Made by a program: the position numbers and the translations under genes. A stretch of 64,000 bases of DNA from Eledone cirrhosa. Lineage: Eukaryota. Location of the stretch: assembly GCA_964016885.1 (NCBI GenBank), contig OZ024742.1, positions 368,156,001 through 368,220,000 on the forward strand, read 5' to 3'. The notes under the pieces were generated by a model. The model was not told the origin of the DNA, made no database searches, and saw only the letters and a list, made by a program, of their open reading frames with translations. Below, piece after piece: positions 15,001-64,000 of the stretch; the stretch's first letter is position 1; each line of letters begins with the position of its first letter.

Positions 15001-18000
15001 GGTTTACTATGTTGTGTCAGTGAGAGAGTGGTTTACTATGTTGTGTCAGTGAGTGGTTTACTATGTTGTGTCAGTGAGAGAGTGGTTTACTATGTTGTGT
15101 CAGTGAGTGGTTTACTATGTTGTGTCAGTGAGTGGTTTACTATGTTGTGTCAGTGAGAGAGTGGTTTACTATGTTGTGTCAGTGAGAGAGTGGTTTACTA
15201 TGTTGTGTCAGTGAGTGGTTTACTATGTTGTGTCAGTGAGTGGTTTACTATGTTGTGTCAGTGAGTGGTTTACTATGTTGTGTCAGTGAGTGGTTTACTA
15301 TGTTGTGTCAGTGAGAGAGTGGTTTACTATGTTGTGTCAGTGAGACAGTTGTTTACTATGTTGTGTCAGTGGGAGAGTGGTTTACTATGTTGTGTCAGTG
15401 AGAGAGTGGTTTACTATGTTGTGTCAGTGAGTGGTTTACTATGTTGTGTCAGTGAGTGGTTTACTATGTTATGTCAGTGAGTGGTTTACTATGTTGTGTC
15501 AGTGAGAGAGTGGTTTACTATGTTGTGTCAGTGAGAGAGTGGTTTACTATGTTGTGTCAGTGAGAGAGTGGTTTACTATGTTGTGTCAGTGAGTGGTTTA
15601 CCATGTTGTGTCAGTGAGTGGTTTACTATGTTGTGTCAGTGAGAGGGTGGTTTACTATGTTGTGTCAGTGAGAGAGTGGTTTACTATGTTGTGTCAGTGA
15701 GTGGTTTACTATATTGTGTCAGTGAGTGGTTTACTATGTTGTGTCAGTGAGAGAGTGGTTTACTATGTTGTGTCAGTGAGTGGTTTACTATGTTGTGTCA
15801 GTGAGAGAGTGGTTTACTATGTTGTGTCAGTGAGAGAGTGGTTTACTATGTTGTGTCAGTGAGTGGTTTACTATGTTGTGTCAGTGAGAGAGTGGTTTAC
15901 TATGTTGTGTCAGTGAGTGGTTTACTATGTTGTGTCAGTGAGTGGTTTACTATGTTGTGTCAGTGAGTGGTTTACTATGTTGTGTCAGTGAGAGAGTGGT
16001 TTACTATGTTGTGTCAGTGAGTGGTTTACTATGTTGTGTCAGTGAGAGAGTGGTTTACTATGTTGTGTCAGTGAGAGAGTGGTTTACTATGTTGTGTCAG
16101 TGAGAGAGTGGTTTACTATGTTGTGTCAGTGAGTGGTTTACTATGTTGTGTCAGTGAGTGGTTTACTATGTTGTGTCAGTGAGAGAGTGGTTTACTATGT
16201 TGTGTCAGTGAGAGGGTGGTTTACTATGTTGTGTCAGTGAGAGAGTGGTTTACTATGTTGTGTCAGTGAGTGGTTTACTATGTTGTGTCAGTGAGTGGTT
16301 TACTATGTTGTGTCAGTGAGAAAGTGGTTTACTATGTTGTGTCAGTGAGAGAGTGGTTTACTATGTTGTGTCAGTGAGTGGTTTACTATGTTGTGTCAGT
16401 GAGAGAGTGGTTTACTATGTTGTGTCAGTGAGTGGTTTACTATGTTGTGTCAGTGAGATAGTGGTTTACTATGTTGTGTCAGTGAGAGAGTGGTTTACTA
16501 TGTTGTGTCAGTGAGTGGTTTACTATGTTGTGCCAGTGAGTGGTTTACTATGTTGTGTCAGTGAGAGAGTGGTTTACTATGTTGTGTCAGTGAGAGAGTG
16601 GTTTACTATGTTGTGTCAGTGAGTGGTTTACTATGTTGTGTCAGTGAGTGGTTTACTATGTTGTGTCAGTGAGTGGTTTACTATGTTGTGTCAGTGAGTG
16701 GTTTACTATGTTGTGTCAGTGAGAGAGTGGTTTACTATGTTGTGTCAGTGAGAGAGTGGTTTACTATGTTGTGTCAGTGAGTGGTTTACTATGTTGTGTC
16801 AGTGAGTGGTTTACTATGTTGTGTCAGTGAGAGAGTGGTTTACTATGTTGTGTCAGTGAGAGAGTGGTTTACTATGTTGTGTCAGTGAGAGAGTGGTTTA
16901 CTATGTTGTGTCAGTGAGTGGTTTACTATGTTGTGTCAGTGAGTGGTTTACTATGTTGTGTCAGTGAGAGGGTGGTTTACTATGTTGTGTCAGTGAGAGA
17001 GTGGTTTACTATGTTGTGTCAGTGAGTGGTTTACTATGTTGTGTCAGTGAGTGGTTTACTATGTTGTGTCAGTGAGAGGGTGGTTTACTATGTTGTGTCA
17101 GTGAGAGAGTGGTTTACTATGTTGTGTCAGTGAGAGAGTGGTTTACTATGTTGTGTCAGTGAGAGAGTGGTTTACTATGTTGTGTCAGTGAGTGGTTTAC
17201 CATGTTGTGTCAGTGAGTGGTTTACTATGTTGTGTCAGTGAGAGAGTGGTTTACTATGTTGTGTCAGTGAGTGGTTTACTATGTTGTGTCAGTGAGTGGT
17301 TTACTATGTTGTGTCAGTGAGTGGTTTACTATGTTGTGTCAGTGAGAGAGTGGTTTACTATGTTGTGTCAGTGAGAGAGTGGTTTACTATGTTGTGTCAG
17401 TGAGAGAGTGGTTTACTATGTTGTGTCAGTGAGAGAGTGGTTTACTATGTTGTGTCAGTGAGAGAGTGGTTTACTATGTTGTGTCAGTGAGAGAGTGGTT
17501 TACTATGTTTTGTCAGTGAGAGAGTGGTTTACTATGTTGTGTCAGTGAGAGAGTGGTTTACTATGTTGTGTCAGTGAGAGAGTGGTTTACTATGTTGTGT
17601 CTGGGAGAGAGTGGTTTACTATGTTCTGTCAGTGAGAGAGTGGTTTACTATGTTGTGTCAGTGAGAGAGTGGTTTACTATGTTGTGTCAGTGAGAGAGTG
17701 GTTTACTATGTTGTATCAGTGAGTGGTCTACTATGCTGTGTCAGTGAGAGGATGGTTTACTATGTTGTGTCAGTGAGAGAGTGGTTTACTATGTTGTGTC
17801 AGTGAGTGGTTTACTATGTTGTGTCAGTGAGAGAGTGGTTTCCTATGTTGTGTCAGTGAGAGAGTGGTTTACTATGTTGTGTCAGTGAGTGGTTTACTAT
17901 GCTGTGTCAGTGAGAGAGTGGTTTACTATGTTGTGTCAGTGAGAGAGTGGTTTACTATGTTGTGTCAGTGAGAGAGTGGTTTACTATGTTGTGTCAGTGA

Positions 18001-21000
18001 GTGGTTTACTATGCTGTGTCAGTGAGAGAGTGGTTTACTATGTTGTGTCAGTGAGAGAGTGGTTTACTATGTTGTGTCAGTGAGAGAGTGGTTTACTATG
18101 TTGTGTCAGTGAGTGGTTTACTATGTTGTGTCAGTGAGAGAGTGGTTTACTATGTTGTGTCAGTGAGTGGTTTACTATGTTGTGCCAGTGAGTGGTTTAC
18201 TATGTTGTGTCAGTGAGAGAGTGGTTTACTATGTTGTGTCAGTGAGAGAGTGGTTTACTATGTTGTGTCAGTGAGTGGTTTACTATGTTGTTTCAGTGAG
18301 TGGTTTACTATGTTGTGTCAGTGAGTGGTTTACTATGTTGTGTCAGTGAGTGGTTTACTATGTTGTGTCAGTGAGAGAGTGGTTTACTATGTTGTGTCAG
18401 TGAGAGAGTGGTTTACTATGTTGTGTCAGTGAGTGGTTTACTATGTTGTGTCAGTGAGTGGTTTACTATGTTGTGTCAGTGAGAGAGTGGTTTACTATGT
18501 TGTGTCAGTGAGAGAGTGGTTTACTATGTTGTGTCAGTGAGAGAGTGGTTTACTATGTTGTGTCAGTGAGTGGTTTACTATGTTGTGTCAGTGAGTGGTT
18601 TACTATGTTGTGTCAGTGAGAGGGTGGTTTACTATGTTGTGTCAGTGAGAGAGTGGTTTACTATGTTGTGTCAGTGAGTGGTTTACTATGTTGTGTCAGT
18701 GAGTGGTTTACTATGTTGTGTCAGTGAGAGGGTGGTTTACTATGTTGTGTCAGTGAGAGAGTGGTTTACTATGTTGTGTCAGTGAGAGAGTGGTTTACTA
18801 TGTTGTGTCAGTGAGAGAGTGGTTTACTATGTTGTGTCAGTGAGAGAGTGGTTTACTATGTTGTGTCAGTGAGAGAGTGGTTTACTATGTTGTGTCAGTG
18901 AGAGAGTGGTTTACTATGTTTTGTCAGTGAGAGAGTGGTTTACTATGTTGTGTCAGTGAGAGAGTGGTTTACTATGTTGTGTCAGTGAGAGAGTGGTTTA
19001 CTATGTTGTGTCTGGGAGAGAGTGGTTTACTATGTTCTGTCAGTGAGAGAGTGGTTTACTATGTTGTGTCAGTGAGAGAGTGGTTTACTATGTTGTGTCA
19101 GTGAGAGAGTGGTTTACTATGTTGTATCAGTGAGTGGTCTACTATGCTGTGTCAGTGAGAGGATGGTTTACTATGTTGTGTCAGTGAGAGAGTGGTTTAC
19201 TATGTTGTGTCAGTGAGTGGTTTACTATGTTGTGTCAGTGAGAGAGTGGTTTACTATGTTGTGTCAGTGAGAGAGTGGTTTACTATGTTGTGTCAGTGAG
19301 TGGTTTACTATGCTGTGTCAGTGAGAGAGTGGTTTACTATGTTGTGTCAGTGAGAGAGTGGTTTACTATGTTGTGTCAGTGAGAGAGTGGTTTACTATGT
19401 TGTGTCAGTGAGTGGTTTACTATGCTGTGTCAGTGAGAGAGTGGTTTACTATGTTGTGTCAGTGAGAGAGTGGTTTACTATGTTGTGTCAGTGAGAGAGT
19501 GGTTTACTATGTTGTGTCAGTGAGTGGTTTACTATGTTGTGTCAGTGAGAGAGTGGTTTACTATGTTGTGTCAGTGAGTGGTTTACTATGTTGTGTCAGT
19601 GAGAGAGTGGTTTACTATGTTGTGTCAGTGAGAGGGTGGTTTACTATGTTGTGTCAGTGAGAGAGTGGTTTACTATGTTGTGTCAGTGAGAGAGTGGTTT
19701 ACTATGTTGTGTCAGTGAGAGAGTGGTTTACTATGTTGTGTCAGTGAGTGGTTTACTATGTTGTGTCAGTGAGTGGTTTACTATGTTGTGTCAGTGAGAG
19801 AGTGGTTTACTATGTTGTGTCAGTGAGTGGTTTACTATGTTGTGTCAGTGAGAGAGTGGTTTACTATGTTGTGTCAGTGAGTGGTTTACTATGTTGTGTC
19901 AGTGAGTGGTTTACTATGTTGTGTCAGTGAGTGAGTGGTTTACTATGTTGTGTCAGTGAGAGAGTGGTTTACTATGTTGTGTCAGTGAGTGGTTTACTAT
20001 GTTGTGTCAGTGAGTGGTTTACTATGTTGTGTCAGTGAGTGGTTTACTATGTTGTGTCAGTGAGAGAGTGGTTTACTATGTTGTGTCAGTGAGTGGTTTA
20101 CTATGTTGTGTCAGTGAGTGGTTTACTATTTTGTGTCAGTGAGTGGTTTACTATGTTGTGTCAGTGAGTGGTTTACTATGTTGTGTCAGTGAGAGAGTGG
20201 TTTACTATGTTGTGTCAGTCAGTGGTTTACTATGTTGTGTCAGTGAGTGGTTTACTATGTTGTGTCAGTGAGTGGTTTACTATGTTGTGTCAGTGAGTGG
20301 TTTACTATGTTGTGTCAGTGAGTGGTTTACTATGTTGTGTCAGTGAGAGTGTGGTTTACTATGTTGTGTCAGTGAGTGGTTTACTATGTTGTGTCAGTGA
20401 GTGGTTTACTATGTTGTGTCAGTGAGTGGTTTACTATGTTGTGTCAGTGAGTGGTTTACTATGTTGTGTCAGTGAGAGAGTGGTTTACTATGTTGTGTCA
20501 GTGAGTGGTTTACTATGATGTGTCAGTGAGTGCTTTACTATGTTGTGTCAGTGAGTGGTTTACTATGTTGTGTCAGTGAGAGAGTGGTTTACTATGTTGT
20601 GTCAGTGAGTGGTTTACTATGTTGTGTCAGTGAGTGGTTTACTATGTTGTGTCAGTGAGAGAGTGGTTTACTATGTTGTGTCAGTGAGTGGTTTACTATG
20701 TTGTGTCAGTGAGTGGTTTACTATGTTGTGTCAGTGAGTGGTTTACTATGTTCTGTCAGTGAGTGGTTTACTATGTTGTGTCAGTGAGAGAGTGGTTTAC
20801 TATGTTGTGTCAGTGAGTGGTTTACTATGTTGTGTCAGTGAGTGGTTTACTATGTTGTGTCAGTGAGAGAGTGGTTTACTATGTTGTGTCAGTGAGTGGT
20901 TTACTATGTTGTGTCAGTGAGTGGTTTACTATGTTGTGTCAGTGAGAGAGTGGTTTACTATGTTGTGTCAGTGAGAGAGTGGTTTACTATGTTGTGTCAG

Positions 21001-50691: not shown

Positions 50692-51464
50692 GCAAACCTC
50701 GTTTTGTCAGCAAACAGCTTTATTGTCACGTTGGGTAGTCTGTCGTATGTAGAATGTTTTTTTATACACACACACAAACATACACATGCGCACACACAAA
50801 CGCACACATACACACACAATAACACATATACACACACACAAAAACACACATACACACACATACACGCACACAAAAACAATGTAAAACCGGGTTTTTGTAC
50901 ATTGTGTTTTCCCCTTCAAATACTTGCTTATATTTCTTTATATATTCTCGATATATTTTTTTAATATATATATTTTCTATCTTTATTCTTATTTTCAATT
51001 TTATCCTCCTTTATATTTTAACTTATTCTTACTTTTATACCTTATTATAGTGTAATCTTCCCCATGCCTTATTATACATTATTAATTATAGATTATTATT
51101 ATTACACTTTTTCCATTTCTAATTACCTCATGTACTTTCTCCTCCGTTATATATATATACTAGCAGTAAAGCCCGGCGTTGCTCGGGGTCGCTCAGTAGC
51201 TGTGTTAAAGTTACAATGTTAAGTTTCTTTCTTGGCTTAAAAACTGTAGTGTCTACTGTGCAGACTTGCATGTGGTGTTTTTGATTAATATTCCCTCAAC
51301 CAACAATATGCCTTATGAAGTTAAGAAAACATAACGATAACCCGAATGTTATAACAAAAGAGGATGCTGGGGATAGAAACTGCACTGGTTATTTATTAAC
51401 AAAGATCGAAAATGTAAACACTGCAACGCAGAGAAAAACATTAGCGTAACCAAATTATCAGTTA

Positions 51465-51720
51465 TGTCTGTCTGCACGCCTATATCACCTCTCTGCACGA
51501 CTGTCTGTCTGCACGCCTATATCACCTCTCTGCACGACTGTCTGTCTGCACGCCTATATCACCTCTCTGCACGACTGTCTGTCTGCACGCCTATATCACC
51601 TCTCTGCACGACTGTCTGTCTGCACGCCTATATCACCTCTCTGCACGACTATCTGTCTGAACGCGTATATCACCTCTCTGCACGACTGTCTGTCTGCACG
51701 ACTGTCTGTCTGCACGCCTA
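51465..51720. repeat. 37-bp minisatellite TGTCTGTCTGCACGCCTATATCACCTCTCTGCACGAC, 6 units plus partials
   Basis: Read directly. Confidence 0.95.
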
Positions 51721-52012
51721 ACGACGAAATATTTGCTTGTTTTACGTAGTCTTTAAATAGACTTGTTTTCAAGTAAAAATATTGTTTTAAAATGCTTTTA
51801 AATGGAAATGAAGCAAAACGGAAGATTAGTGTTCGAACTGATGAATTTTGCAGGTATGCCTTATGAAGTTAATAAAACATAACGATAACCCGAATGTTAT
51901 AACAAAAGAGGATGCTGGGGATAGAAACTGCACTGGTTATTTATTAACAAAGATCGAAAATGTAAACACTGCAACGCAGAGAAAAACATTAGCGTAACCA
52001 AATTATCAGTTA

Positions 52013-52231
52013 TGTCTGTCTGCACGCCTATATCACCTCTCTGCACGACTGTCTGTCTGCACGCCTATATCACCTCTCTGCACGACTGTCTGTCTGCACG
52101 CCTATATCACCTCTCTGCACGACTGTCTGTCTGCACGCCTATATCACCTCTCTGCACGACTGTCTGTCTGCACGCGTATATCACCTCTCTGCACGACTGT
52201 CTGTCTGCACGACTGTCTGTCTGCACGCCTA
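52013..52231. repeat. 37-bp minisatellite, 5 units plus partials (second copy)
   Basis: Read directly. Confidence 0.95.
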
Positions 52232-52913
52232 ACGACGAAATATTTGCTTGTTTTACGTAGTCTTTAAATAGACTTGTTTTCAAGTAAAAATATTGTTTTA
52301 AAATGCTTTTAAATGGAAATGAAGCAAAACGGAAGCTTAGTGTTCGAACTGATGAATTTTGCAGGTCAATATTTTGCTGGCTCGACAACTGTTAAAGCCA
52401 GCGTAATTTTTTACGTAAGACGCTCAATGTAAACAGAACAAAGGGAAATAACTGATAACTTACGCTCAAAAATCGATACATTATATTCGATTTCGTCACA
52501 TAGGGTGGGTCAATTTGAAATTTTTTTTTCGATGTCTTCGCTAGGGCTCAATGTACAAGTATAGCAATTTCGGTGCAATTCCGTGAGAGATTCTAAGAGG
52601 AGATGTGTGCCAAAAATCGATAGACAGACAGACAACCACAGTTTTATATATATAGATTGTATGCCCATTGTGTGTGTATAGCCTCTGCACACCCTCTGCA
52701 CCCTACTATCGACGCCACCCCATCTATGGTTCAGCTAACCACTCGACTCCCGGGAATGAATATGACCGCAGCTAGTAAACAAGGACCCACACCCCACCCT
52801 CCCGTACCAAAATTAGACTTATCGTCCCCTACTTTTGCTCTTTACTCTCTTTACTCTTTGTTCTTGAATGTTTGGTTGGTAGAGTTCATAACACCAATCA
52901 AACCCCTTTTATA

Positions 52914-52958
52914 GCTCTGACGAATCCTACGGTTACGTAAGGAAGAAACATTGTAAGC
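52914..52958 (+). ncRNA. Minimal type I hammerhead ribozyme (PLE-type)
   Basis: gct-CTGACGA-a-tcctacg(gtta)cgtaagga-a-GAAA-cattg-TA-agc. Core is intact, stem I is GCU/AGC, stem II is ~7 bp and stem III is minimal; AATAAA follows. Confidence 0.75.
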
Positions 52959-53000
52959 CAATAAAAATATTTTGATGTTGTAGACGCTCTTGTGTTCTTT

Positions 53001-53003
<3 letters not shown>

Positions 53004-53034
<31 letters not shown>
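53004..53034. repeat. (TA)n microsatellite shared by two converging PLE tails
   Basis: Read directly. Confidence 0.95.
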
Positions 53035-53036
<2 letters not shown>

Positions 53037-53058
53037 GTATAATAAACAATACAATATA

Positions 53059-53136
53059 ATTACCTCATTACCAGAGGTTTCCCGAATAAGACGAATACGA
53101 AAGAAACGTCCTCATTCGTTCGTCGGACAAGGCAAT
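53059..53136 (-). ncRNA. Type I hammerhead ribozyme, CCGACGA core variant
   Basis: Minus strand: attgccttgt-CCGACGA-a-cgaatgaggacg(13 nt)cgtcttattcg-g-GAAA-cc(tct)gg-TA-atgaggtaat. Stem I is 10 bp (3 G-U), stem II ~11 bp and stem III short. Confidence 0.75.
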
Positions 53137-54110
53137 ATAAAACATAGTGAAACATTTTTGGAAAGTCTCCTCAAGAAATGCAAAAAAAATATATATATAT
53201 AAATAAAGGTAATGCAATAGACATAAAATATATAAAAATATATAAGGAAATATAGTTAGGTGTGTGTATATGTATGTATATACACTCACAAATGTACATA
53301 TGTATGTATGTACAAATGCGTGTGTATGGTGAAAATGTGTGCGTAAGTACACATATGAGGGCAAGTATATTTGTGTATATGTAACCACAAATACGGATAT
53401 AATCTAGTTGACACGAATCCAGACGCAGGTATTAGATACTTATATGCGGAAGATAAAGGGGGAAAGGGAGTGTAATAGTTAAAAGAAAGTGTCATTCTCG
53501 ATATATGTATAAAAATTAAACAATATGTGAGAAAGAAAAAATATTTAAATGAAAGAGAAAGTAGTCAATTAACACTAGAGAAAAGAAAAGAAAAGAAAAG
53601 AAGATACACGCGTACATACACATATATCTATAAAAAAACATATATCTATAAGAAAATATATATATACACGCAATACGTACAGACAAAACATATTAACGGA
53701 CATACACACAAACATATTCACGGACATTGACCCGCTTACACGCACACACATAAAAATAAGAATTTAAAAAACATAGATATAAAAACACAGATATAAAAAC
53801 ACACATACATACACATATATATACACGCACGCACACGCGCATACGGAGGCGTTCGTGTACATATACAGAACGTATACACACATAAAGACGCTCAAAAGCA
53901 ACCTTATGAATAAATGAGTACAAATATAAAAATATAAAAATGGCTGCGAAATAACAGAAAATATCTGGAGTGGAAAACGCAAGTGACTTTGGTAATCAGG
54001 TAGTAAAGAAATTAGGGAAGTAAAAAGTGGAAAGTGAAGATATTAGGTAAGTGAATCGAAGGATAAAAGAGGAGGGGGGTTACTGGTGGATGTGAAGTAA
54101 AAATAATAAT

Positions 54111-54386
54111 AAAAATAAAAATAAAAATAAAAATAAAAATAAAAATAAAAATAAAAATAAAAATAAAAATAAAAATAAAAATAAAAATAAAAATAAAAAT
54201 AAAAATAAAAATAAAAATAAAAATAAAAATAAAAATAGAAATAGAAATAGAAATAAAAATAAAAATAAAAATAGAAATAAAAATAAAAATAAAAATAAAA
54301 ATTAAAATTAAAATAAAAATAAAAGTAAAAATAAAAATAAAAATAAAAATAAAAATAAAAATAAAAATAAAAATAAAATTAAAATT
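54111..54386. repeat. (AAAAAT)n microsatellite within the PLE tail
   Basis: Read directly, ~45 units. Confidence 0.95.
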
Positions 54387-54462
54387 AATAATAAGGTTAA
54401 AAATGAAAGTAAATCAGAAAGAGTAGTCTTTAAAGAGAATAATTTAAGTGAAGAATAAGAGC

Positions 54463-54777
54463 TTATGGAGGATAAGTATCTGAAAGTGTGTTAAGTTTAT
54501 ATGAGCTGGAAAGCAAGTGTGATTTCATGTGTGGGCAACTGGTAAAAAGTTCTGCCTTTGTATTTAGGCAGGTTTTTGGTGATTTAAGGTTTTGTAAAAT
54601 CCAATATTTTTCATTTATGCAGAGTGTGCATTTTCTTGTTCCTCTTGCATATTCTTTACATTGGTTCAAAATTGACCAATCCAATTTATATTGGATACCT
54701 TGGTCTTTCAAATCCCATATTCTGCTAGCCAGAGCTGTTGTGAATCTTTTTTTCTGGATGTCGAAAGGATGCGACAT
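54463..54777 (-). pseudogene. C-terminal fragment of a PLE GIY-YIG endonuclease (CxxCxxEK...LN..E...CxH type)
   Basis: H.F...KKRFTTALASRIWDLKDQGIQYKLDWSIL...KCTLCINEKYWIL...LNTKAELFTSCPH matches the C-terminal pattern of a PLE endonuclease group, possibly the Hydra clade (from memory). The GIY/YIG motifs are lost by truncation. Confidence 0.7.
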
Positions 54778-55021
54778 GTGAGTAATAATATATATATATC
54801 ACGATAAATTAACGGAGCCATAGACCCTCGCCATTCCCAGTAATATATCTTCTTCCAACATTAGACTTACCTATATTTGTATATTTACTTAGAGATTTGT
54901 TGAACATTAAATAAATTATTGATATAAATTTTCTACAAAAACGGAGATTTCACAGAAGCAGACATGACATCTCTGCTGATTTCCCGTGACTTAGCTCTGC
55001 AACTAAAATAGACAGATCAAA

Positions 55022-55275
55022 TTCTTCTTCTTAGGATCTCTTCGGTCACGAATGATCATGGTATCGCATCTAGAAAATTACCCTTCGATGTACAAGCCTT
55101 GGTAAGGTGCATTCGTCGAAGACCTGTCTCTCCTCTCCACGCCACCGATGTTGTCCAAGAGAAATGCAATGACTGATACATCTTGGTCCCAGTGAATTCG
55201 CATCTCATTTCTACAGCTAAGTGAAATAAAGTGTCTTGCTCAAGAACACAACGCACTACCCGATCCGGGATTCGA
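55022..55275 (-). mobile_element. tRNA-derived SINE with (GAA)n tail
   Basis: Minus strand has the B-box GTTCGAATCCC, then GTGTTCTTGAGCAAGACACTT (a conserved SINE motif), and a 3' end in AAGAAGAAGAA. The A-box region is degraded. Confidence 0.7.
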
Positions 55276-55431
55276 ACTCACAACCTTACGATTGTATGCG
55301 TGTTTGTTGTACATGTGTGCGTTTCAACGGATCGGTCACATATTGTGTCATGCTGAATCTCGTGAGAATTACCTTAAGGCTACACGTGTCTGTGGAATGC
55401 TCTATCACATTAATACCATGCTTTATATATT

Positions 55432-55520
55432 AGTACTGGGCTCGATATGATAGACTAAATCTACGTTAGGCCGTACCCCAGCATGGCCGCAGTATAATGA
55501 CTAAAACCAGTTAAAGAATA
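55432..55520 (+). mobile_element. 3' fragment of a cephalopod-type SINE
   Basis: AGTACTGGG...CCCCAGCATGGCCGCAGT...ATGACTAAAACCAGTTAAAGAATA resembles the 3' end of abundant octopus SINEs. Recognition only, not searched. Confidence 0.45.
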
Positions 55521-55770
55521 TAGGAAACCTAATTCGCGTCCCCTCACAACCCTTGTGTATTTTATGGGTAACTTTATAGATCTCCGGTTGGAATTTCAAG
55601 GGCATTGTGCGTTTTTGCCAACTTGTGGGTTTATCTATAAAGAAAAGGAGAGGAGCTGATTATGAGATCGGATCAAGGAAATAATGTTTTTATTGGTCTT
55701 AACATTGCAAATATTATCTGTCGGTCACCTCACAGGAGTAAAGTGTAATGAAGAGACCTGCTTAAGAATA

Positions 55771-55983
55771 CGAGGGTTGGCTGAAACCTTCATACGCTGA
55801 AAGGTTCAGAGGGTGACAAAGATGCTCTTATAGAATGACTGAATAGGGTTTATTGTCAACATAGTGCCTGGAAAGAAACGATGCATTTAATAATAATCAG
55901 AGTTGAAATTAATGGATATAAGATTTCACAGCTCTAGAATCAATCCTCCATAATCAGCCTATGAACATTTTAGTCAACTCTTG
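55771..55983. mobile_element. Tc1/mariner-type MITE (213 bp)
   Basis: TA|CGAGGGTTGGCTGAAACCTTCATACGCTGA ... TCAGCCTATGAACATTTTAGTCAACTCTTG|TA: 30-bp imperfect TIRs (23/30 match) with a TA target duplication. Confidence 0.75.
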
Positions 55984-56094
55984 TATATATATAGAGTTGA
56001 TCGACTTTCGTCAAATCGGACCGAGGAAACACTGTTTCCGTTGGTCTTTCCAATTGCTAATACTATCTATCGTTCGCAACTCCAGGTAGAAGGA

Positions 56095-56157
56095 GCAACG
56101 TGAAATAATGTGTCTTGCTCAAGGACATCGCCTATTCCGGGAATCGAATTCACAACG
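56095..56157 (-). mobile_element. Degenerate SINE head fragment related to 55022-55275
   Basis: GTGAAATAATGTGTCTTGCTCAAGGACA...CCGGGAATCGAATTCACAAC parallels 55221-55283. Confidence 0.6.
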
Positions 56158-56335
56158 AATTACGAATCAAAGTATGAGTTCAGATGTATATATTTACCAC
56201 CAGACATTCCTCTGAAGGAATAATTATACCATTAATATGTAGTTTTACTGTCGTACGGATTGGACTACCCCTGCAGCAACATCCTTAAAGACAGAAATGT
56301 TTCTTGTCTGAAGAGTCTTAAGTACATGAAAATTG

Positions 56336-56337
<2 letters not shown>

Positions 56338-56430
<93 letters not shown>
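56338..56430. repeat. (TA)n microsatellite
   Basis: Read directly, ~46 units. Confidence 0.97.
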
Positions 56431-56432
<2 letters not shown>

Positions 56433-56516
56433 GAAAAATTGAACAGGGACAGAACAGAGAGGCAATACAATAAATGTTTATTAAATTCACGCTCAGGAGA
56501 GTGGGGGGTAGGTGGG

Positions 56517-56552
56517 TGACGACGTTTCGGGCATAAGCCCTTCTTCAGGTGA
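56517..56552 (-). ncRNA. Minimal hammerhead ribozyme (Penelope type)
   Basis: Minus strand: tcac-CTGAAGA-a-gggc(ttat)gccc-GAAA-CG-TC-gtca. The ACGT palindrome replaces stem III, as in dimer-dependent PLE HHRs. Stem I is weak. Confidence 0.75.
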
Positions 56553-57893
56553 GAAGTGTGTGGAAACAGAGTTCAAAAGGTGTGTAGGGGAGTGGTGGAG
56601 AGACATATAGCGAAAGGAAACGGTGCGAATGAAAAATTAACAAATAAAGACAAAAAATATAATAAATAAAAATAAAGCATGATCAAAACACAAGGAATGA
56701 GAAAATTTAAAAATAAAGGCATGATCAAAATAAACTGAAATTAAAAGGGGGGTAAACAGGTGGTGGAAGGGTGTGGGGTGAGTAGGGGTGGTGGCGGATG
56801 GAGTGGGGAGAGGGAGACGGGGTGTCCGAGCGGGGAGGGCTGAAGGTAGTGTGTGTGGTTAGGTGTGCGTGTGTGTGTGTGTGTGTGTATGTGAAAGTGA
56901 GGGTTGGGGGAAGAACGGAGTTGCATGTTCAGGAAGGTGTGTGTGGGGGTGTTTTTGTGGGTCGGAGTGTCTGTGCATGTGTGGATAGGGGGTGTGGGGA
57001 GAGGAATCAGGAGGCTGAGGGTGTAAATATGTGGTGGGAAGCACGTGTGTGTGGTTTAAGCGTGTTGTGGGTGTGGGTGGCGTGTGGATAAAAAATTCTT
57101 TTTGGGGTGTGTGTGTGGGTGAGTTATATAGGTGATGGTGTAAGAGGATGGTTGAAAAGTTGGTAAGTTCCACGGATGTTTGGAAATTTGGTTAGAAGTC
57201 AATTTCGCGTGTGGGTAATCCAAGAAGCGGTGGTCGGAAGAGGAGAGATGTGGGGTGCGCGCGCAACAGGAAGTGGTCAGCAGTGGGAGTGCTGTGGTCA
57301 GTTGGTGCTGAGAGGTGGTGGGAAGGGTATAGCAGCAGTCGGTGGAATGGTAGGGAGGCGAGGATGGGTAGGTGTGAGAGTTGGAGTGAGGAGGGTGTGT
57401 GTGTGTATTAGTAGGGGTGTTAGTGGGATGAGTGAGTGTGGAGCGGGGAGAGAAGGGTGTGTGTGGTTCTATGGAGGGAGTGTGGTGTACTGGTGTGTGT
57501 GTAGTTTGGGTGAAGAGGTGTTAGTGGGTGTTAGTATACGGGAGGTGGGGAGGGGTGGAATGCAGGTGTGAGTGGGGGTTAGTGGTGGTAGGGTGTGTAG
57601 AGTTGGTGGTGTACGAGGGTGTGTGGGTACGTGTGCGTGGGGTTGGGGGTGTTAGTGATGTTAGTTGCGTGTGGGGTGGGTGGTGTAAGTTGGTGCGTAT
57701 GTGCGTGTGATAAGGAGGGGGAGGAGGATAAGAGGGGAGGGAAGGGATGTTAGTAAGTTAGTTGGGGAAGGGTGGTCAGATGAGGGGTGGAGTAGAGGTG
57801 TTAGTATTGTTAGTGTGGGGTGGGCGGTGGAAAGGAGGGGTGTGTTAGTGGTGTTAGTGGGGGATAAGTGTGGGGGGAGGGGGCGGTCGAACG

Positions 57894-58192
57894 CTAAAGG
57901 AATAAGGGTGGGGAGTTCAGGCCGGGGGGAGTGTGGGTCTGTAAGATGAAGATAGTGCGTTGTTCGACCGTAAGGCGATGGGCGGGTGTTCCGTGGCACT
58001 GGAGTAGGCCACAGACTGTGAGATGGCGTGCGGAGTGTCCAGGGCCACCAAAGTGGCGGGCGATGGGGGAACTGCCCCCGAGACGAATATCCCGGAGGTG
58101 CTCCGTGACTCGGTCCGCCAGGCGACGTCCCGTCTGTCCGACATAAGTCGCGCTGCACTCCGTGCAACGAAGTCCGTAGACTATTTCCTTCG

Positions 58193-58193
<1 letters not shown>
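57894..58193 (-). pseudogene. PLE GIY-YIG endonuclease domain (RT lost by 5' truncation)
   Basis: IVYGLRCTECSATYVGQTGRRLADRVTEHLRDI...PIARHF...H...EQRTIFILQT..P.GLN: GIY/YIG equivalents, CxxC...H...H, catalytic R, E and GLN. The N-terminal part of the track ORF is translated microsatellite. Confidence 0.9.

Positions 58194-58232
<39 letters not shown>
58194..58232. repeat. (TA)n(TG)n compound microsatellite
   Basis: Read directly. Confidence 0.95.
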
Positions 58233-58235
58233 TTC

Positions 58236-58354
58236 TCGCAAGCCCTGATGAATAGACTGGTTATAACAAAGTATTGGTGATCTATTGACGCAAAAACGAG
58301 CGGGTAGCGATCTCTAGACCTACCAGTTCGGAGAAACAATTGTCAGCAATGTGA
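58236..58354 (+). ncRNA. Probable (possibly decayed) hammerhead ribozyme with an 81-nt stem II region
   Basis: tcgcaagcc-CTGATGA(58245)-atagactggt...accagttcgga-GAAA(58333)-caattg-TC-agcaatgtga, then AATAAA. GAAACAATTGTC is identical to the HHR at 61006. The first stem I pair is a C.A mismatch. Confidence 0.5.
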
Positions 58355-58573
58355 ATAAAGCCCTTATTGTATAGCAAACCGTGTCACTCTTCTTTCTTGA
58401 TTTATTATTACTCCAAGTGTAAACTACATAGAAATCACCGACTACTCGCAGCATCACTATGGAAACGTCTTGTTGAGTCAAACTTAGCCAAGCGTTAATA
58501 CTATCCACTACTCGGAGTACCCTAACTGGACTACATCTAAGTGAACTACCTATAACAATAATTTGTCATCCCG

Positions 58574-58594
<21 letters not shown>

Positions 58595-58607
<13 letters not shown>

Positions 58608-58704
58608 AGTGGTTACACAACAGTTAGTTCACCATACCGAGAACAATTGGGTTTGTTCTCGGTAAGGTGAACTAACTGTTGTGTAACCACTTCTCTCTCT
58701 CTCT
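58595..58704. repeat. Inverted repeat, 52-bp arms, 1 mismatch, 6-nt loop
   Basis: (AG)nAAGTGGTTACACAACAGTTAGTTCACCATACCGAGAACAA-ttgggt-TTGTTCTCGGTAAGGTGAACTAACTGTTGTGTAACCACTT(CT)n. Confidence 0.95.
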
Positions 58705-58949
58705 GTTGTGTAACCACTTCTCTCTCACCTTAGCGAATCCTCAGCTCGTAATGGGCATGGTTATACGGAATAGGAAGGACAACCGTACGAACGCTTATGC
58801 GCAGAAACGAACACTTCACACAGGCAATACTAAAATGCGTGCGAGAGGTGTAAGGGAGATAACTGCGAAAGTCCGAAAAGTTTCTAGTTGATAAGGAAAT
58901 TAGGGTGTTGTTGTAATTCAATCCGGAGCTTTGTAGTTACGTAAGAGAT

Positions 58950-59970
58950 CGGATCAATGGCAGTCTGTCATCGGGGTGTGTATAGGCAGCGGCGTTCCCC
59001 AGCGCTCTGTGTTGGGCCCAATTCTCTTCCTTCTATACAGCAACGACATGTCGGACCTGATTGGTGGAATCGTGCTTCTATTTGCAGATGATGTGAAAAT
59101 GGTAGCCCGTAGGAACGAGATCGACAATCTCATGTCCAGCCTCCAGCGCGCCTGGAGTTGGTCCATTGACTGGGATTTATACCTCAATGTCGATAAGTGT
59201 TGTCATATGGAAGTGGATACACCTTATAACTCAGCTCTTACCTTCAACGGTGGCACTGCTCCTTTGAAGGAGGCTGAGGAGACTAAAGATCTTGGTCTGC
59301 TGGTCGACTCGTCCTTCAAATCATCAAAACATTGCATTCAAGCCGCAAACAAGGCAAGGAACTCTCTTTTTCTTATTCGACGCTCCTTTGCCAAACTCAT
59401 TCCAGAAATGTTCAGGTCTCTCTATGTCGCCCTCGTGAGACCGCACTTAGAATATGAGGTCCAAGCATCAAACACATATCTCATCCGGGATATCTATCAC
59501 TTGGAGAGAGTTCAACGACTAGCGACTCGAATGGTACAGGGTCTTCATGAGCTGCCCTACGAAAACCGGCTGCAGAAGCTGAACCTCTTCTCCTTGGAGC
59601 GTCGACGGCTAAGAGGCGATCTCATTTCGGCTTACAGTCTCTTCAATGGCCATTACGATCTCCCTCAAGATCTCCTATTCACTTCGGAACTTGAAAGGGG
59701 TCTACGTGGACATGACAAAAAGCTGTTTCACCGCCGCTTTCGCCTGAATAGACGGAAAGCTGCTTTCTCGATCCGCATCTCTGGACCCTGGAATCGGCTT
59801 CCAGAAGAAGTAGTCAACGCGTCAACCACGCAACAATTCAAGGCGAAATTGGACCGGTGTTGGACCACTGTGTTTCGGACTGTGTAAATGTTGCCCCCTC
59901 CCCTCGTTACATGGCATCTGAAGCATCTATGTTTTAATTTCTGGCAAATATATTGAATTAAATTGAAAAA
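58950..59970 (+). mobile_element. 5'-truncated CR1-type LINE
   Basis: RT C-terminal half, a short 3' UTR and a degenerate (TTGAA)n tail near 59952-59967. Homology seems to begin at RINGSLSS (58950), one base out of frame with the ORF. Confidence 0.85.
58976..59887 (+). pseudogene. CR1-type non-LTR reverse transcriptase fragment (303 aa)
   Basis: Motifs SGVPQRSVLGPILFLLY.ND, LFADDVK, LNVDKC, KDLG, LYVALVRPHLEY, LERVQRLATR, SLERRRLRGDLI, LRGH..KL and WNRLP. The conserved G of GVPQG is changed to R. Confidence 0.93.
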
Positions 59971-59989
59971 AATGCTTTTAATTAAGCAT

Positions 59990-61150
59990 ACAGTGTATTA
60001 CCAAATACACTATATATACATTCATATATACATCGCTATTTCAGAGCACTAATTCTAATATATATAATTCTAATATATATATAAACTATCTAGTTATAAT
60101 AAAATAATTTTTAAAATGTGTCTAACTCCCTCCACACAAGTTTAAAAGATAACAATTGTATAACCAATAATATTTTATATACTCTATATAGATTAATTCA
60201 TAACACTACTACAATAATAATAAAACAATCCTTGATTTATCAACAACCTTAATTACTTCCCTTTGTTATTAACCCTCTTTACAACTTCCTGTGTAAACTC
60301 ATAAAATTAGGCAACCTAACGGTTTACCAACAACTTAATAACGGTTAATACAAACCCTAGAAAAGATAATTTGTAGATAAAAAATGCATAAGATAATATA
60401 CCTACAATAACAACATGGCCAATAATTCGGTGGAACAAACACCTATTGACTATAAACGACTCAAAATAATCCCATGGTTAATAGCTGTGAGTTACAAACA
60501 ACATATACACATACATACGAACTACAACACAAAAACACCTAAATGAAAATCACATATCCAACTCTATCACGTGCTTTGCATTACACCTTACATAACAAAT
60601 ACCTACATTATCACCACATGCCTCTCTAACAAATTGCACACTATCTTAAACATTTCTAACAATAATAACATGCTCTAACACCCCCACACAAAATGTTTAT
60701 TTCAACTGCATTATAACTCTTTCCTCATACATGCCTTATTGACTGTATTGACTCCTGAAATATACACCACTTTTCCTTGCTTGTAACTTTTTTGCCTGTA
60801 CTTTTTCCTTATACCTCTTACACTTTCAGCCAGTGCTGCCTGTAATTATGTTCTCTCAAACATAACACCTTTAACTCCTGACTCTCAACGTGATCCCTTT
60901 TACACTAAAAACAATTATGTACCCTAAATGTTCTGAATGATTAGGATTTTAGTCACATGTTTCGACATTCCCTATGCTCCGATGAACCCAGACTTCCCTC
61001 TGGAAGAAACAATTGTCGGCAAATAAATGTTCGAAATTAAAATTTTATCGTTTTAACACTTTGTATCTCGGCTCTGTAAAACACCAGAAAATTTGAACTG
61101 AGCTTTTTGTCATACCGGTAACCGGCTAGTACTTAGTACTACCCTACATA
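59990..61150 (+). mobile_element. Probable non-coding PLE 3' tail
   Basis: G-poor, A/C-rich strand ending in an HHR (60975-61021) and AATAAA (61022), shortly before (TA)n. Boundaries are approximate. Confidence 0.5.
60975..61021 (+). ncRNA. Type I hammerhead ribozyme, CCGATGA core variant
   Basis: tgct-CCGATGA-ac-ccaga(cttccc)tctgg-aa-GAAA-caattg-TC-ggca. Stem I is 4 bp, stem II 5 bp, and stem III is the palindrome ACAATTGT. Confidence 0.68.
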
Positions 61151-61195
61151 TTTATAGTTGTATTAAAGATATATAAATATAAATATCCTTATTAT

Positions 61196-61198
<3 letters not shown>

Positions 61199-61258
<60 letters not shown>
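61199..61258. repeat. (TA)n microsatellite
   Basis: Read directly. Confidence 0.97.
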
Positions 61259-61260
<2 letters not shown>

Positions 61261-61345
61261 CAAAAGCAATATTCAATTTGTTGGTAATTCAACAAATATA
61301 ACTGTTTATAACTGATTCAAAGCACTCGACAAGTTTTCTGGAGTA

Positions 61346-61687
61346 TAATATTCAATGATATTAAATAAATGGAAACTATATTTATAAAACCATACTTATT
61401 CTAGTATATATATTTCAAAGGTACCAAAACTTTGGTACGCTCTCATCAAATAAAATACAAAGTTTATTTTATAAATATTGACATAACCAGGAAGAACTTA
61501 ACGGTTCAAGTTTCTCCTAGAAAAACTTGAACCGTTAAGTTCTTCCTGGTTATGTCAATATTTATAAAACAAACTTTGTATTTTATCTGATGAGTGCGTA
61601 CCAAAGTTTGGTACCCTTGAAATATATATAATAGAACAAATATGGTTGTATAAATATAGTTTCGATTTATTTAATATCATTGTATTA
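61346..61687. repeat. Long palindrome (fold-back), ~170-bp arms, centred near 61518
   Basis: ...TGACATAACCAGGAAGAACTTAACGGTTCAAGTTT-ctcctagaa-AAACTTGAACCGTTAAGTTCTTCCTGGTTATGTCA... Complementarity continues with scattered mismatches out to CAATGATATTAAATAAAT / ATTTATTTAATATCATTG. Confidence 0.93.
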
Positions 61688-61975
61688 TTATTTTGCCCGA
61701 GAAAATATCTATGTGTATCATCAAATGTTGTACACACATGGATATTTTTTCAAATTCCAATTGAGTTCTAGCACGTGGCTTGAATTCCTTTTAGAATTCA
61801 TTGTCCTGCGCATGTATTTTTTTTTTTTGCGGTAATATACTTCCTCATGTTTGAATCAGTTTGAGAATTTCTTTAGAGCTGCTGAAGTAGCAACCTAACA
61901 GATACCTCAGGCACTGATGGTGATTATCGCTAAATACTGATGTTGATTTGATTATCAATATTAGTATTATTGGGC

Positions 61976-62103
61976 TCCCACTGATGAATTATAAGAGCCC
62001 ACTTGAATATTATCTGTTGATCCTATACAAGCTCCTTCATAAATTGATATAATTTCACCCAAATTGTAGGAATCTTATAATGAAACGAGACGTCCGTCTG
62101 GGA
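61976..62103 (+). ncRNA. Type I hammerhead ribozyme with a 94-nt stem II region
   Basis: tccca-CTGATGA-attataaga(76 nt)tcttataat-GAAA-cg(agacgtc)cg-TC-tggga. Core is perfect, stem I is 5 bp, the base of stem II is a perfect 9 bp, and the cleavage triplet is GUC. Confidence 0.78.
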
Positions 62104-62269
62104 AGAGATATATTCGATATGTCTCATATGAAATAATACAGCCAATTTTCCACACAATACATTTAGTTAGCACCCCGAACGTTTAATTAGGAATATACTC
62201 ACTTATTTCCTAATGTTTCTTGAGTGAGTTGGAATTTGGCCGGCGTATCGCTAAAAGCTTTCTCCGATA

Positions 62270-62272
<3 letters not shown>

Positions 62273-62322
<50 letters not shown>
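62273..62322. repeat. (TA)n microsatellite between two converging HHR-bearing tails
   Basis: Read directly. Confidence 0.97.
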
Positions 62323-62325
<3 letters not shown>

Positions 62326-62489
62326 CAATATGTTGAAAAGGTAACACATAAGAGAGAGAGAGATAGTGCGCTATCAATCAAACAGGGAAAATCCACCGTA
62401 TATGGAATTTATAACCCATGGAAGGCAGAGTAGACGATAATTAAAAGTATAAATTAAAGTGTAAATACATACCTCGATAACTATCTAAC

Positions 62490-62571
62490 ACACACGTACA
62501 AATCCAAAGAGATCTGTTTCGCCAATAAGTTGTAGACAGACATGAATAATCCATGGTTCGTCAGCGTATGT
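62490..62571 (-). ncRNA. Full three-stem type I hammerhead ribozyme
   Basis: Minus strand: acatacg-CTGACGA-a-cca...tgg-c-GAAA-cagatct(cttt)ggatttg-TA-cgtgtgt. Stem I is 7 bp, stem III 7 bp with G-U pairs, and the cleavage triplet is GUA. Confidence 0.8.
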
Positions 62572-62677
62572 AAGGCTTTTCAGGCAACTCTAAGAGAATC
62601 GAAAGCGACCGTCCCGCCACACGTTGGAGAGAGAAGTCACAACGTGACTAGGACAGTAACCAATGGCCTCTGAGGAC

Positions 62678-64000
62678 CACACACTGACACACACTGACAC
62701 ACATTGACACACACTGACACACACACTGACACACACTGACACACACACTGACACTGACACTGGCACACACTGACACACACTAACACACAGACTGAGATAC
62801 ACTGACACACACACAGACACACACTTACACACACTGACACACACGCTGACACACACTGACACACATTGACACACACTGACACACACACTGACACACACTG
62901 ACACACACACTGACACAGACACTGGCACACACTGACACACACTAACACACAGACTGACATACACTGACACACACACAGACACACACTTAAACACACTGAC
63001 ACACACGCTGACACACACTGACACACACTGACACACTGACACACACACTGACACATACACTGGCACACACTGACACACACTAACACACAGACTGAGATAC
63101 ACTGACAAACACACAGACACACACTGACACACACTGACACACACTGACACACACACTGGCACACACTGACACACACACACTGACACACACTAACACACAG
63201 ACTGAGATACACTGACACACACACAGACACACACTGACACACACTGAAACACACGCTGACACACACTGACACACACTGACATACACACTGACACACACTG
63301 ACACACACTGACACACACACTGACACAGACACTGGCACACACTGACACACACTAACACACAGACTGAGATACACTGACAAACACACTGGCACACACTGAC
63401 GCACACACTGAAACACACTGACATACACTGACACACACACTGACACACACTGACACACACTGACACACACACTGACACACACTGACATACACTGACACAC
63501 ACACTGACACACACGGACACACACTGACACACACACTGACACACACTGACACACACTGACACACACACTGACACACACTGACACACACTGACACACACAC
63601 TGACAAACACACTGACACACACTGACACACACACTGACACACACTGACACACACTGACACACACACTGACACACACTGACATACACTGACACACACACTG
63701 ACACACACTGACACACACTGACACCCACTGACACACACTGACACCCAGTGACACACACTGACACACACTAACACACACACTGACACACACTGACACACAC
63801 TGACACACACTGACACACACAGACACACACTGGCACACACAGTGGCACACACACTGTCACACACTGACACATAATGACATACACTGACACACACACTGAC
63901 ACACACACTGACACATACACTGACACACACTGACACACACTGACATACACTGACACACACTGACACACACTGACACACACTGACGCACACACTGACACAC
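62678..64000. repeat. Satellite of variable 8/10/12-bp units CTGA(CA)n; continues beyond the window
   Basis: Read directly. A recurring marker block (CTGGCACACACTGACACACACTAACACACAGACTGAGATAC) indicates a higher-order period of ~150 bp. Confidence 0.97.

What the first reader, a model, noticed from the sequence alone, without database searches (positions are those of the whole stretch)
52914..62571. Seven distinct hammerhead ribozyme motifs within ~10 kb
Seen: seven CYGANGA...GAAA...UH cores with pairable stems at 52914(+), 53059(-), 56517(-), 58236(+), 60975(+), 61976(+) and 62490(-). Their stem sequences differ, and each lies ~25-220 bp upstream of a (TA)n tract, often with AATAAA. Known: PLE pseudo-LTRs carry type I HHRs. 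Inference: up to seven different PLE or retrozyme-like families have accumulated at this locus, only two with coding remnants, spanning minimal, full, core-variant and extended architectures.
Basis: partly seen in the sequence, partly recalled or inferred. Interest (0 to 1): 0.75.

Follow-up and report, generated by a model that had tools for sequence, protein, structure and literature searches.

The report
Hammerhead-tipped Penelope ends in TA repeats
The seven hammerhead-shaped RNA motifs are real and are the clipped tail ends of seven abundant Penelope-type jumping-gene families that sit in TA repeats; the spot is only somewhat denser than the rest of this genome, which holds an estimated 350,000-440,000 such motifs, and whether they cut RNA is untested.

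Summary
All seven type I hammerhead motifs exist, far above chance. Each is the 3' end of a separate high-copy family (1,225-3,549 first-look candidates) ending at (TA)n (134 of 138 other copies). Five families trace to coding Penelope-like elements (PLEs): four with Hydra-clade motifs, one Neptune-type. Two are non-coding head-to-tail units of 700 and 536 nt. The locus is not special. Ninety-six spaced 10-kb windows held 149 motifs (shuffles 6-12); 6 of 96 matched the locus count of 5, and 2 of 96 matched its five families. That extrapolates to about 3.5-4.4 x 10^5 motifs, versus 126,247 canonical ones reported for the roughly ten-fold larger axolotl genome (different descriptor). PLE hammerheads, Hydra (TA)n targeting and an octopus Hydra family with a hammerhead are published. 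Cleavage and expression are untested. This scan reported the same picture before on other DNA of this genome (about 200,000 motifs). Verdict: new members of a known kind; the genome-wide load is the notable part.

The parts
50890..51158 (+). H1 element, upstream 3'-UTR piece, split from the rest at an internal TA run
   Evidence: 97% identical to L207, continuing at 52647
52647..53003 (+). H1 3' end (Hydra-type PLE, young, 98-99% identical copies)
52917..52955 (+). H1 hammerhead: stem I GCU/AGC, stem III ACAUUGU, predicted cut after GUA
   Evidence: core canonical in 28 of 28 copies
53004..53034 (.). (TA)n shared tail-to-tail by H1 and H2
53035..54788 (-). H2 5'-truncated Hydra-type PLE: GIY-YIG C-terminal remnant 54463-54788, long 3' UTR, hammerhead
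53069..53126 (-). H2 hammerhead: CCGA (U4C) core, 10-bp stem I, 9-bp stem II
   Evidence: C4 in 22 of 27 copies
56338..56430 (.). (TA)n at the H3 3' end
56431..58183 (-). H3 5'-truncated Neptune-type PLE: GIY-YIG remnant 57894-58183, CA-rich 3' UTR
   Evidence: Pfam GIY-YIG E=0.0024, below the curated cut-off; 96.8% identical to L213, which carries RT plus EN
56521..56548 (-). H3 minimal hammerhead, palindromic ACGU stem III (predicted dimer type)
58233..58573 (+). H4 3' end (Hydra-type PLE) with extended hammerhead 58245-58344; stem I damaged in this copy
58590..58947 (-). H9: rearranged copy of a ninth hammerhead family, core CUGAGGA at 58744 separated from its GAAACAAUUGU half
   Evidence: intact motifs in homologues L120 and L169
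60052..61193 (+). H5 3' UTR and end (Hydra-type PLE), hammerhead 60979-61017 with CCGA core
   Evidence: C4 in 42 of 47 copies
61194..61258 (.). (TA)n between H5 and the inverted H8 arm
61259..61689 (.).
61690..62272 (+). H6 non-coding unit (full unit about 700 nt); hammerhead 61981-62098 with 9-bp stem II and 94-nt stem II region
62273..62322 (.). (TA)n shared tail-to-tail by H6 and H7
62323..62676 (-). H7 non-coding unit (full unit 536 nt including an 87-nt tail); hammerhead 62564-62497 with 8-bp stems I and III

Best explanation
The seven motifs are the hammerheads in the 3' pseudo-LTRs of seven separate high-copy Penelope-like families, likely inserted one after another into (TA)n tracts by target-primed reverse transcription, and the locus is an ordinary dense patch of a genome saturated with them. 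Shown: family membership, fixed 3' ends at (TA)n, optional 75-100-nt tails, variable 5' truncation, linkage of H1-H5 to RT plus GIY-YIG ORFs, and short non-coding tandem units for H6 and H7. Inferred, by analogy to the anole Poseidon element: the GIY-YIG nicks AT-rich DNA and the RT starts at one of two internal RNA sites, giving ends with or without the tail; it usually stops early, so mostly the hammerhead-bearing 3' end is deposited; TA is left on both sides and is hit again, giving tail-to-tail pairs that share one tract. H6 and H7 likely borrow a PLE protein. The hammerheads likely matter only in the RNA of the source elements, and those with palindromic stem III (H3, H4, H5, H8) are predicted to need dimers. 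Inserted copies decay neutrally.
For: Families of 1,225-3,549 first-look candidates, 40 scored each. Of 138 other copies, 100 have TA at the fixed end, 34 after an extension, 4 neither. H1, H2, H4 and H5 ORFs carry RW[KR] (not seen in H4), DKT, CxCx5C and CxxC/CxH, the Hydra signature of Craig et al. 2021; H3 has DKG, Cx4CxxC and a Cys pair between GIY and YIG. The ORF-to-hammerhead chain is collinear between independent copies. For H6 and H7, 21 of 25 loci each show the unit preceded head-to-tail by its own 3' end, and 20 of 25 H7 loci have inverted arms. The longest stop-free stretches are 93 and 68 aa, and no shared upstream endonuclease was found. Covariation in the H8 group, gathered by sequence similarity: 48 double-sided changes versus 24.9 in shuffles, 0 of 500 as high; subfamily variants at 0 of 11 core versus 20 of 63 other sites, p=0.03. 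Background: 149 hits in 96 windows versus 6-12 in shuffles and 9-12 with decoy cores; 125 of 148 hits have (TA)5 within 300 nt downstream versus 27% of random positions.
Against: No cleavage or expression data. The hammerhead is not the minimum-energy fold and Rfam finds none. Within H1-H7 the core is not significantly more conserved than other sites (shared variants 1 of 77 versus 19 of 583, p=0.50; rare changes 1.44% versus 1.89%, p=0.12). In one search two of five measures (pairs with a two-sided change; further pair types) did not beat the shuffles, and relatedness inflates the others. Pfam did not recognise the Hydra RTs, so the clade assignment rests on motifs and on reading the published alignment, not on a tree. 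No autonomous partner for H6 or H7 was identified.
Confidence: 0.9

Rival explanations
1. The locus is a special trap or selected cluster of ribozymes, for example next to the 50-kb satellite or as a host RNA-processing unit.
For: Top 2-6% of windows. Families per window are mildly overdispersed (variance/mean about 1.2, computed). The stretch borders a 29-bp satellite.
Against: About 6,000-19,000 other 10-kb windows would be as dense (2-6% of about 300,000). The next 40 kb holds 0, 4, 0 and 0 hits. The motifs face both ways and differ in age (nearest copies 85-100% identical); some are damaged; the window was chosen after the fact.
Confidence: 0.05
2. H6 and H7 are classical retrozymes whose RNA is cut by the hammerhead, circularised and copied as circles.
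For: Non-coding head-to-tail units of 700 and 536 nt with a type I hammerhead; H7 has an 8-bp stem III compatible with monomer activity; 5 of 21 H6 and 3 of 21 H7 upstream pieces read through the cleavage site, and one H7 piece starts at it.
Against: 5' ends do not pile up at the cleavage site. Copies are mostly 1-1.5 units with PLE tails and inversions, which a linear read-through transcript explains equally well. For the anole PLE the hammerhead was dispensable in vitro.
Confidence: 0.3
3. The motifs are chance matches in AT-rich repetitive DNA.
For: No Rfam hit; modest folding z-scores.
Against: Shuffle and decoy-core controls, fixed position near the 3' end of each family, covariation.
Confidence: 0.01

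Closest known systems
Hydra-clade PLEs, including Hydra-1_Obim of Octopus bimaculoides (Craig et al. 2021, PMC8557442; sections 3 and 11, passages and supplement rows read)
   Same: RWK-type motif, DKT, CxCX5C linker, no CCHH, (TA)n insertion, type I hammerhead near the 3' end. By eye, the H2 protein resembles Hydra-1_Obim along the N-terminus and RT, and its stem III (ACC..GGU) resembles the listed one.
   Different: [quoted passage not shown] Here four Hydra-type families lie in one 10 kb, with 3' UTRs of about 0.9-2.2 kb, stem II regions of up to about 90 nt and U4C cores.
Minimal hammerheads of metazoan PLE pseudo-LTRs (Cervera and de la Pena 2014, PMC4209133; parts 1-2 of 4 read)
   Same: Type I topology, extra nucleotide after A9, palindromic stem III, mostly solo copies from truncated PLEs, opposite-strand pairs 100-700 bp apart, many families per genome.
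   Different: They report thousands per genome (about 2,000-9,000); the estimate here is 3.5-4.4 x 10^5. H6 and H7 have longer stem III.
Metazoan non-LTR retrozymes (Cervera and de la Pena 2020, PMC7229834, passages and section 15; Li, Clavereau and Pollet 2026, 10.64898/2026.07.22.740005, parts 1-2 of 5)
   Same: Non-coding tandem units with a type I hammerhead, proposed to derive from PLEs.
   Different: H6 and H7 are longer than the 150-450 bp typical in the 2020 paper (within the 51-972 bp of the 2026 preprint). They occur as 1-1.5 units with PLE tail, inversions and (TA)n ends; circular RNA is untested.
Poseidon PAc of Anolis (Frangieh et al. 2024, PMC11167929; parts 1-2 of 4 read)
   Same: Two classes of 3' end (with or without tail), AT-rich target, no pile-up of ends at the hammerhead site.
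   Different: Different clade; tails here are 75-100 nt rather than the 30-40 bp cited; nothing was assayed here.

Membership tests
Type I hammerhead ribozyme | Core C3-U4-G5-A6-N7-G8-A9 ... G12-A13-A14, A15.1-U16.1, H17 | tested here: met
   Canonical core (C4 allowed) in 28/28, 22/27, 24/24, 23/24, 34/47, 37/44 and 34/40 copies of H1-H7; H2 and H5 are mostly U4C, a known natural variant
Type I hammerhead ribozyme | Three stems, stem I open | tested here: met
   weak stem I in H3 and in the window copy of H4
Type I hammerhead ribozyme | Covariation of the stems | tested here: inconclusive
   Met for the H8 group on three of five measures; H1-H7 copies too alike for a test
Type I hammerhead ribozyme | Self-cleavage | not testable with these tools
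   no assay; no RNA run listed
Penelope-like element (EN+) | RT with C-terminal GIY-YIG in one ORF | tested here: met
   H1-H5 in longer copies L206/L207, L209, L213/L216, L218/L219, L335/L337; several are broken by stops or frameshifts
Penelope-like element (EN+) | Pseudo-LTR tandem or inverted arrangement and optional tail | tested here: met
   H3 tandem in L216; tails in H1, H2 and H7; inversions; no tail seen in the H3 or H4 copies examined
Hydra clade (H1, H2, H4, H5) | RWK, DKT, CxCX5C, CxxC and CxH around E/N, no CCHH | tested here: met
   RWK in H2, RWR in H1 and H5, not seen in the H4 copies read
Hydra clade (H1, H2, H4, H5) | (TA)n insertion | tested here: met
Hydra clade (H1, H2, H4, H5) | Placement in an RT tree with reference Hydra proteins | not tested
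   reference proteins were not available as stored sequences
Neptune clade (H3) | DKG, CX2-5CxxC linker, Cys pair between GIY and YIG | tested here: met
   separation from Nematis not tested by a tree
Non-LTR retrozyme (H6, H7) | Non-coding tandem unit with a type I hammerhead | tested here: met
Non-LTR retrozyme (H6, H7) | Two or more consecutive units with complete hammerheads | tested here: inconclusive
   Most loci hold 1-1.5 units; a few reach into a second hammerhead (for example L263, L268, L291, L292)
Non-LTR retrozyme (H6, H7) | Expressed as circular RNA | not testable with these tools
   no RNA holder listed

The most novel reading that the evidence does not exclude
This 3.0-Gb genome carries about 350,000-440,000 type I hammerheads from 50-100 PLE-related families, some 25-30 times the density of the published axolotl count. 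Among them are Hydra families that amplified to thousands of copies with a weakened U4C core or a 90-nt stem II, and non-coding 536- and 700-nt units that bear the PLE tail. These would make it the richest natural library of hammerhead variants and a direct test of whether cleavage matters for PLE and retrozyme mobility.
Probability: 0.6. Interest if true: 0.55.

Novelty: new member of a known kind. Interest (0 to 1): 0.35.

Why it matters
The locus itself matters little. The genome-wide load does. The role of PLE hammerheads is open: they cleave poorly in vitro and were dispensable for one purified PLE. Here, side by side, are young families with minimal, U4C, extended and long-stem-III hammerheads, in both coding and non-coding elements, so cleavage rate can be compared with amplification success. 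Non-coding units with PLE tails support the proposal that animal retrozymes are moved by PLE proteins.

Tried and rejected
Rfam scan of the whole window at E<=10: no hammerhead family, only hairpin-driven miRNA matches. Pfam does not recognise the Hydra ORFs and gave spurious D5_N and Casc1_N hits. The RT at 58937-59887 is a LINE-type fragment, not the mobiliser (type from recalled sequence style). The first core-conservation run had H4 and H8 coordinates off by one and was replaced. Hypothesis that 5' ends mark the cleavage site: no pile-up. Search for an ORF-bearing parent of H6 or H7 among held loci: 3 of 65 and 1 of 68 hits had an endonuclease-like motif upstream, all different from each other and so neighbours, not a parent. 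Naiad assignment was considered and rejected because the endonuclease is C-terminal. Lunse et al. on dimeric PLE hammerheads was seen only as a title in a reference list, so its variants could overlap those here. Literature searches; only Craig 2021 held all of 'hammerhead ribozyme', 'octopus' and 'cephalopod'. bioRxiv supplements were not seen.
Full report
Setting. The window is G000:C3:368156001-368220000 in a 2,996-Mb genome. Bases 1-50691 are a 29-bp satellite, so the finding lies in the only complex stretch. The taxon was not tested. An octopod is likely, from the closeness of one protein to a published octopus family and from earlier scan notes.

Observation. All seven motifs are present. 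A strict descriptor found five in 52000-63000 against 0.12 on average (maximum 2) in 300 local shuffles. A relaxed one recovered H1, H2, H5, H6 and H7 at score 10 or more and H3 at 7. H4 fails only because this copy's stem I is mutated; the family has UGCU/AGCA. H2 folds best with a 10-bp stem I and a cut after GUA at 53069. H2 and H5 carry C at position 4 in 22 of 27 and 42 of 47 copies, a natural variant said to lower activity in vitro (Perreault et al. 2011, PMC3088659, passages). Cleavage sites lie 34-229 nt before (TA)n, and 4 of 7 have AATAAA. Two more families were missed: H8 (61587+, with an inverted mutated arm) and a broken H9 (58744-). Results against: no Rfam hammerhead hit, and the hammerhead fold is 3.3-5.6 kcal/mol above the minimum for H1-H7.

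Families. Each motif with its flanks returned 40 scored copies out of 1,225-3,549 first-look candidates, which are lower bounds. Nearest copies are 97-100% identical for H1-H3, 94-98% for H4 and H6, 90-92% for H5 and 85-89% for H7, so the insertions differ in age. Among 138 other copies (the top-ranked loci fetched), 100 have TA at the family's fixed 3' end, 34 after an extension (mostly about 100 nt for H1, 77 for H2, 84 for H7) and 4 neither. 5' ends are scattered. In the window, H1/H2 and H6/H7 sit tail to tail on one shared TA tract.

What they belong to. Longer copies link H1-H5 to an RT followed by a GIY-YIG domain, collinear with the window pieces and between independent copies. H1, H2, H4 and H5 show DKT, CxCx5C, CxxC and CxH and lack the cysteines between GIY and YIG; RWK or RWR was seen in H1, H2 and H5. 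This is the Hydra definition in Craig et al. 2021, which also states (TA)n insertion and canonical hammerheads (section 11). Its supplement lists Hydra-1_Obim from Octopus bimaculoides with (TA)n preference and a hammerhead. H1 and H2 proteins are 35% identical over 482 residues, so they are distinct families. H3 has DKG, Cx4CxxC and the cysteine pair, as in Neptune. H6 and H7 are different: their tail runs straight into the same unit. In 21 of 25 loci each, the unit (700 and 536 nt) is preceded head-to-tail by its own 3' end, and 20 of 25 H7 loci have inverted arms. No long frame and no shared upstream endonuclease was found. They are read as non-autonomous.

Selection on the fold. Within H1-H7 the copies are too alike, and rare changes hit core and non-core sites about equally (1.44% versus 1.89%, p=0.12), as expected for neutral decay after insertion. 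The more diverged H8 group (50 copies gathered by BLAST) has subfamily variants at 0 of 11 core sites, at N7, and at 20 of 63 other sites (p=0.03). On a sequence-only alignment of 45 of them (duplicates and one truncated row dropped), the hammerhead structure gives 86% paired cells and 48 two-sided changes (shuffles 24.9; 0 of 500 as high) and beats all slid controls on these measures, though two of the five measures do not beat the shuffles.

Is the locus special? Ninety-six 10-kb windows were taken at fixed spacing on contigs C1-C15, C17, C19, C21, C22 and C28; small and unplaced contigs are under-sampled. At score 10 they held 149 motifs (1.55 per 10 kb, bootstrap 1.17-2.00), against 6-12 in five shuffles and 9-12 with four decoy cores. 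Of 148 hits with room, 125 had (TA)5 within 300 nt downstream, against 27% of random positions. The locus scores 5 by the same rule; 6 of 96 windows reach 5 hits and 2 of 96 reach five families. The adjoining 40 kb holds 0, 4, 0 and 0. Extrapolation gives 4.4, 3.9 and 3.5 x 10^5 motifs at thresholds 10, 11 and 12. One window with 15 hits inflates this by about 10%; the descriptor's misses (2 of the 7 here) deflate it. Hits fall into 52 clusters at 80% identity, some of them false singletons (Chao1 about 97). The largest published count I read is 126,247 for axolotl, a 28.2-Gb genome, obtained with a canonical descriptor, so the 25-30-fold density gap is not like for like.

Mechanism. Shown: the anatomy above. 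Inferred from Frangieh et al. 2024: the protein nicks AT-rich DNA and starts reverse transcription at two internal RNA sites, giving ends with and without a tail. Early termination leaves mostly the hammerhead-bearing end, and TA on both sides is targeted again. In that study the hammerhead was dispensable and protein-assisted. Consistent with this, H6 and H7 5' ends do not pile up at the cleavage site: 5 of 21 and 3 of 21 read through it and one H7 end lies at it. Palindromic stem III in H3, H4, H5 and H8 predicts dimer-dependent cleavage as in Cervera and de la Pena 2014; H7's 8-bp stem III predicts monomer activity. None of this was assayed, and no RNA run was listed.

Earlier scan notes. 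My reading (Hydra, Neptune, two non-coding units, ordinary density) was reached before the look-ups. Notes e1-8804474 and e1-9976111 describe the same picture elsewhere in this genome with about 200,000 motifs, and e1-8669291 in another genome. They gave the lead to Hydra-1_Obim, which I checked. Other notes report scrambled-order hammerheads that my descriptor would not see; I did not test them.

Verdict. Observation confirmed; interpretation partly supported. These are new members of known kinds. The cluster is ordinary for this genome, and the genome-wide load and the variant cores are what deserve follow-up. Interest 0.35.

Noticed in passing
window 51161-52650: A 1.5-kb repeat with internal 37-bp tandem arrays and a partial duplication splits the H1 element at an internal TA run; 94% identical to a copy in L090. 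Its ends recall Helitron-derived (HINE/DINE-1-like) elements; the label is recalled, not tested.
   Followed up: partly
window 1-50691: 29-bp satellite of about 1,860 copies with strong G/T strand skew.
   Followed up: no
window 54790-54850: Solo tail of the H7 family on the minus strand abutting the TA at H2's 5' end, followed by a degenerate stretch with a CCGAAGA core at 55045.
   Followed up: partly
window 58183-58220: The last bases of another abundant short family ending in TTCCTTCGT-(TA)n, whose full copies (L093, L099, L300) are near-perfect fold-backs.
   Followed up: partly
window 58937-59887: 316-aa open fragment of a LINE-type reverse transcriptase (Pfam RVT_1, E=1.5e-7), 5'-truncated.
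   Followed up: partly
window 54098-54413: (TAAAAA)53 expansion inside the H2 3' UTR, much shorter in other copies such as L209.
   Followed up: no
window 56308 and 55800-55965: Possible decayed hammerhead remnants: CTGAAGA..GAAA 31 nt before the 56338 TA tract on the plus strand, and an 80%-identical repeat shared with L102.
   Followed up: no
L334 (G000:C28:110000001-110010000) and L151: Clusters of one short hammerhead family: 15 hits in L334, and three copies at 310-nt spacing in L151; candidate classical retrozyme arrays.
   Followed up: no
L211: An LTR-retrotransposon-type pol frame lies between an inverted pair of H2 ends.
   Followed up: no
window 62678-64000: CACACACTGA-type 10/22-bp satellite begins exactly at the truncated 5' end of H7.
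   Followed up: no
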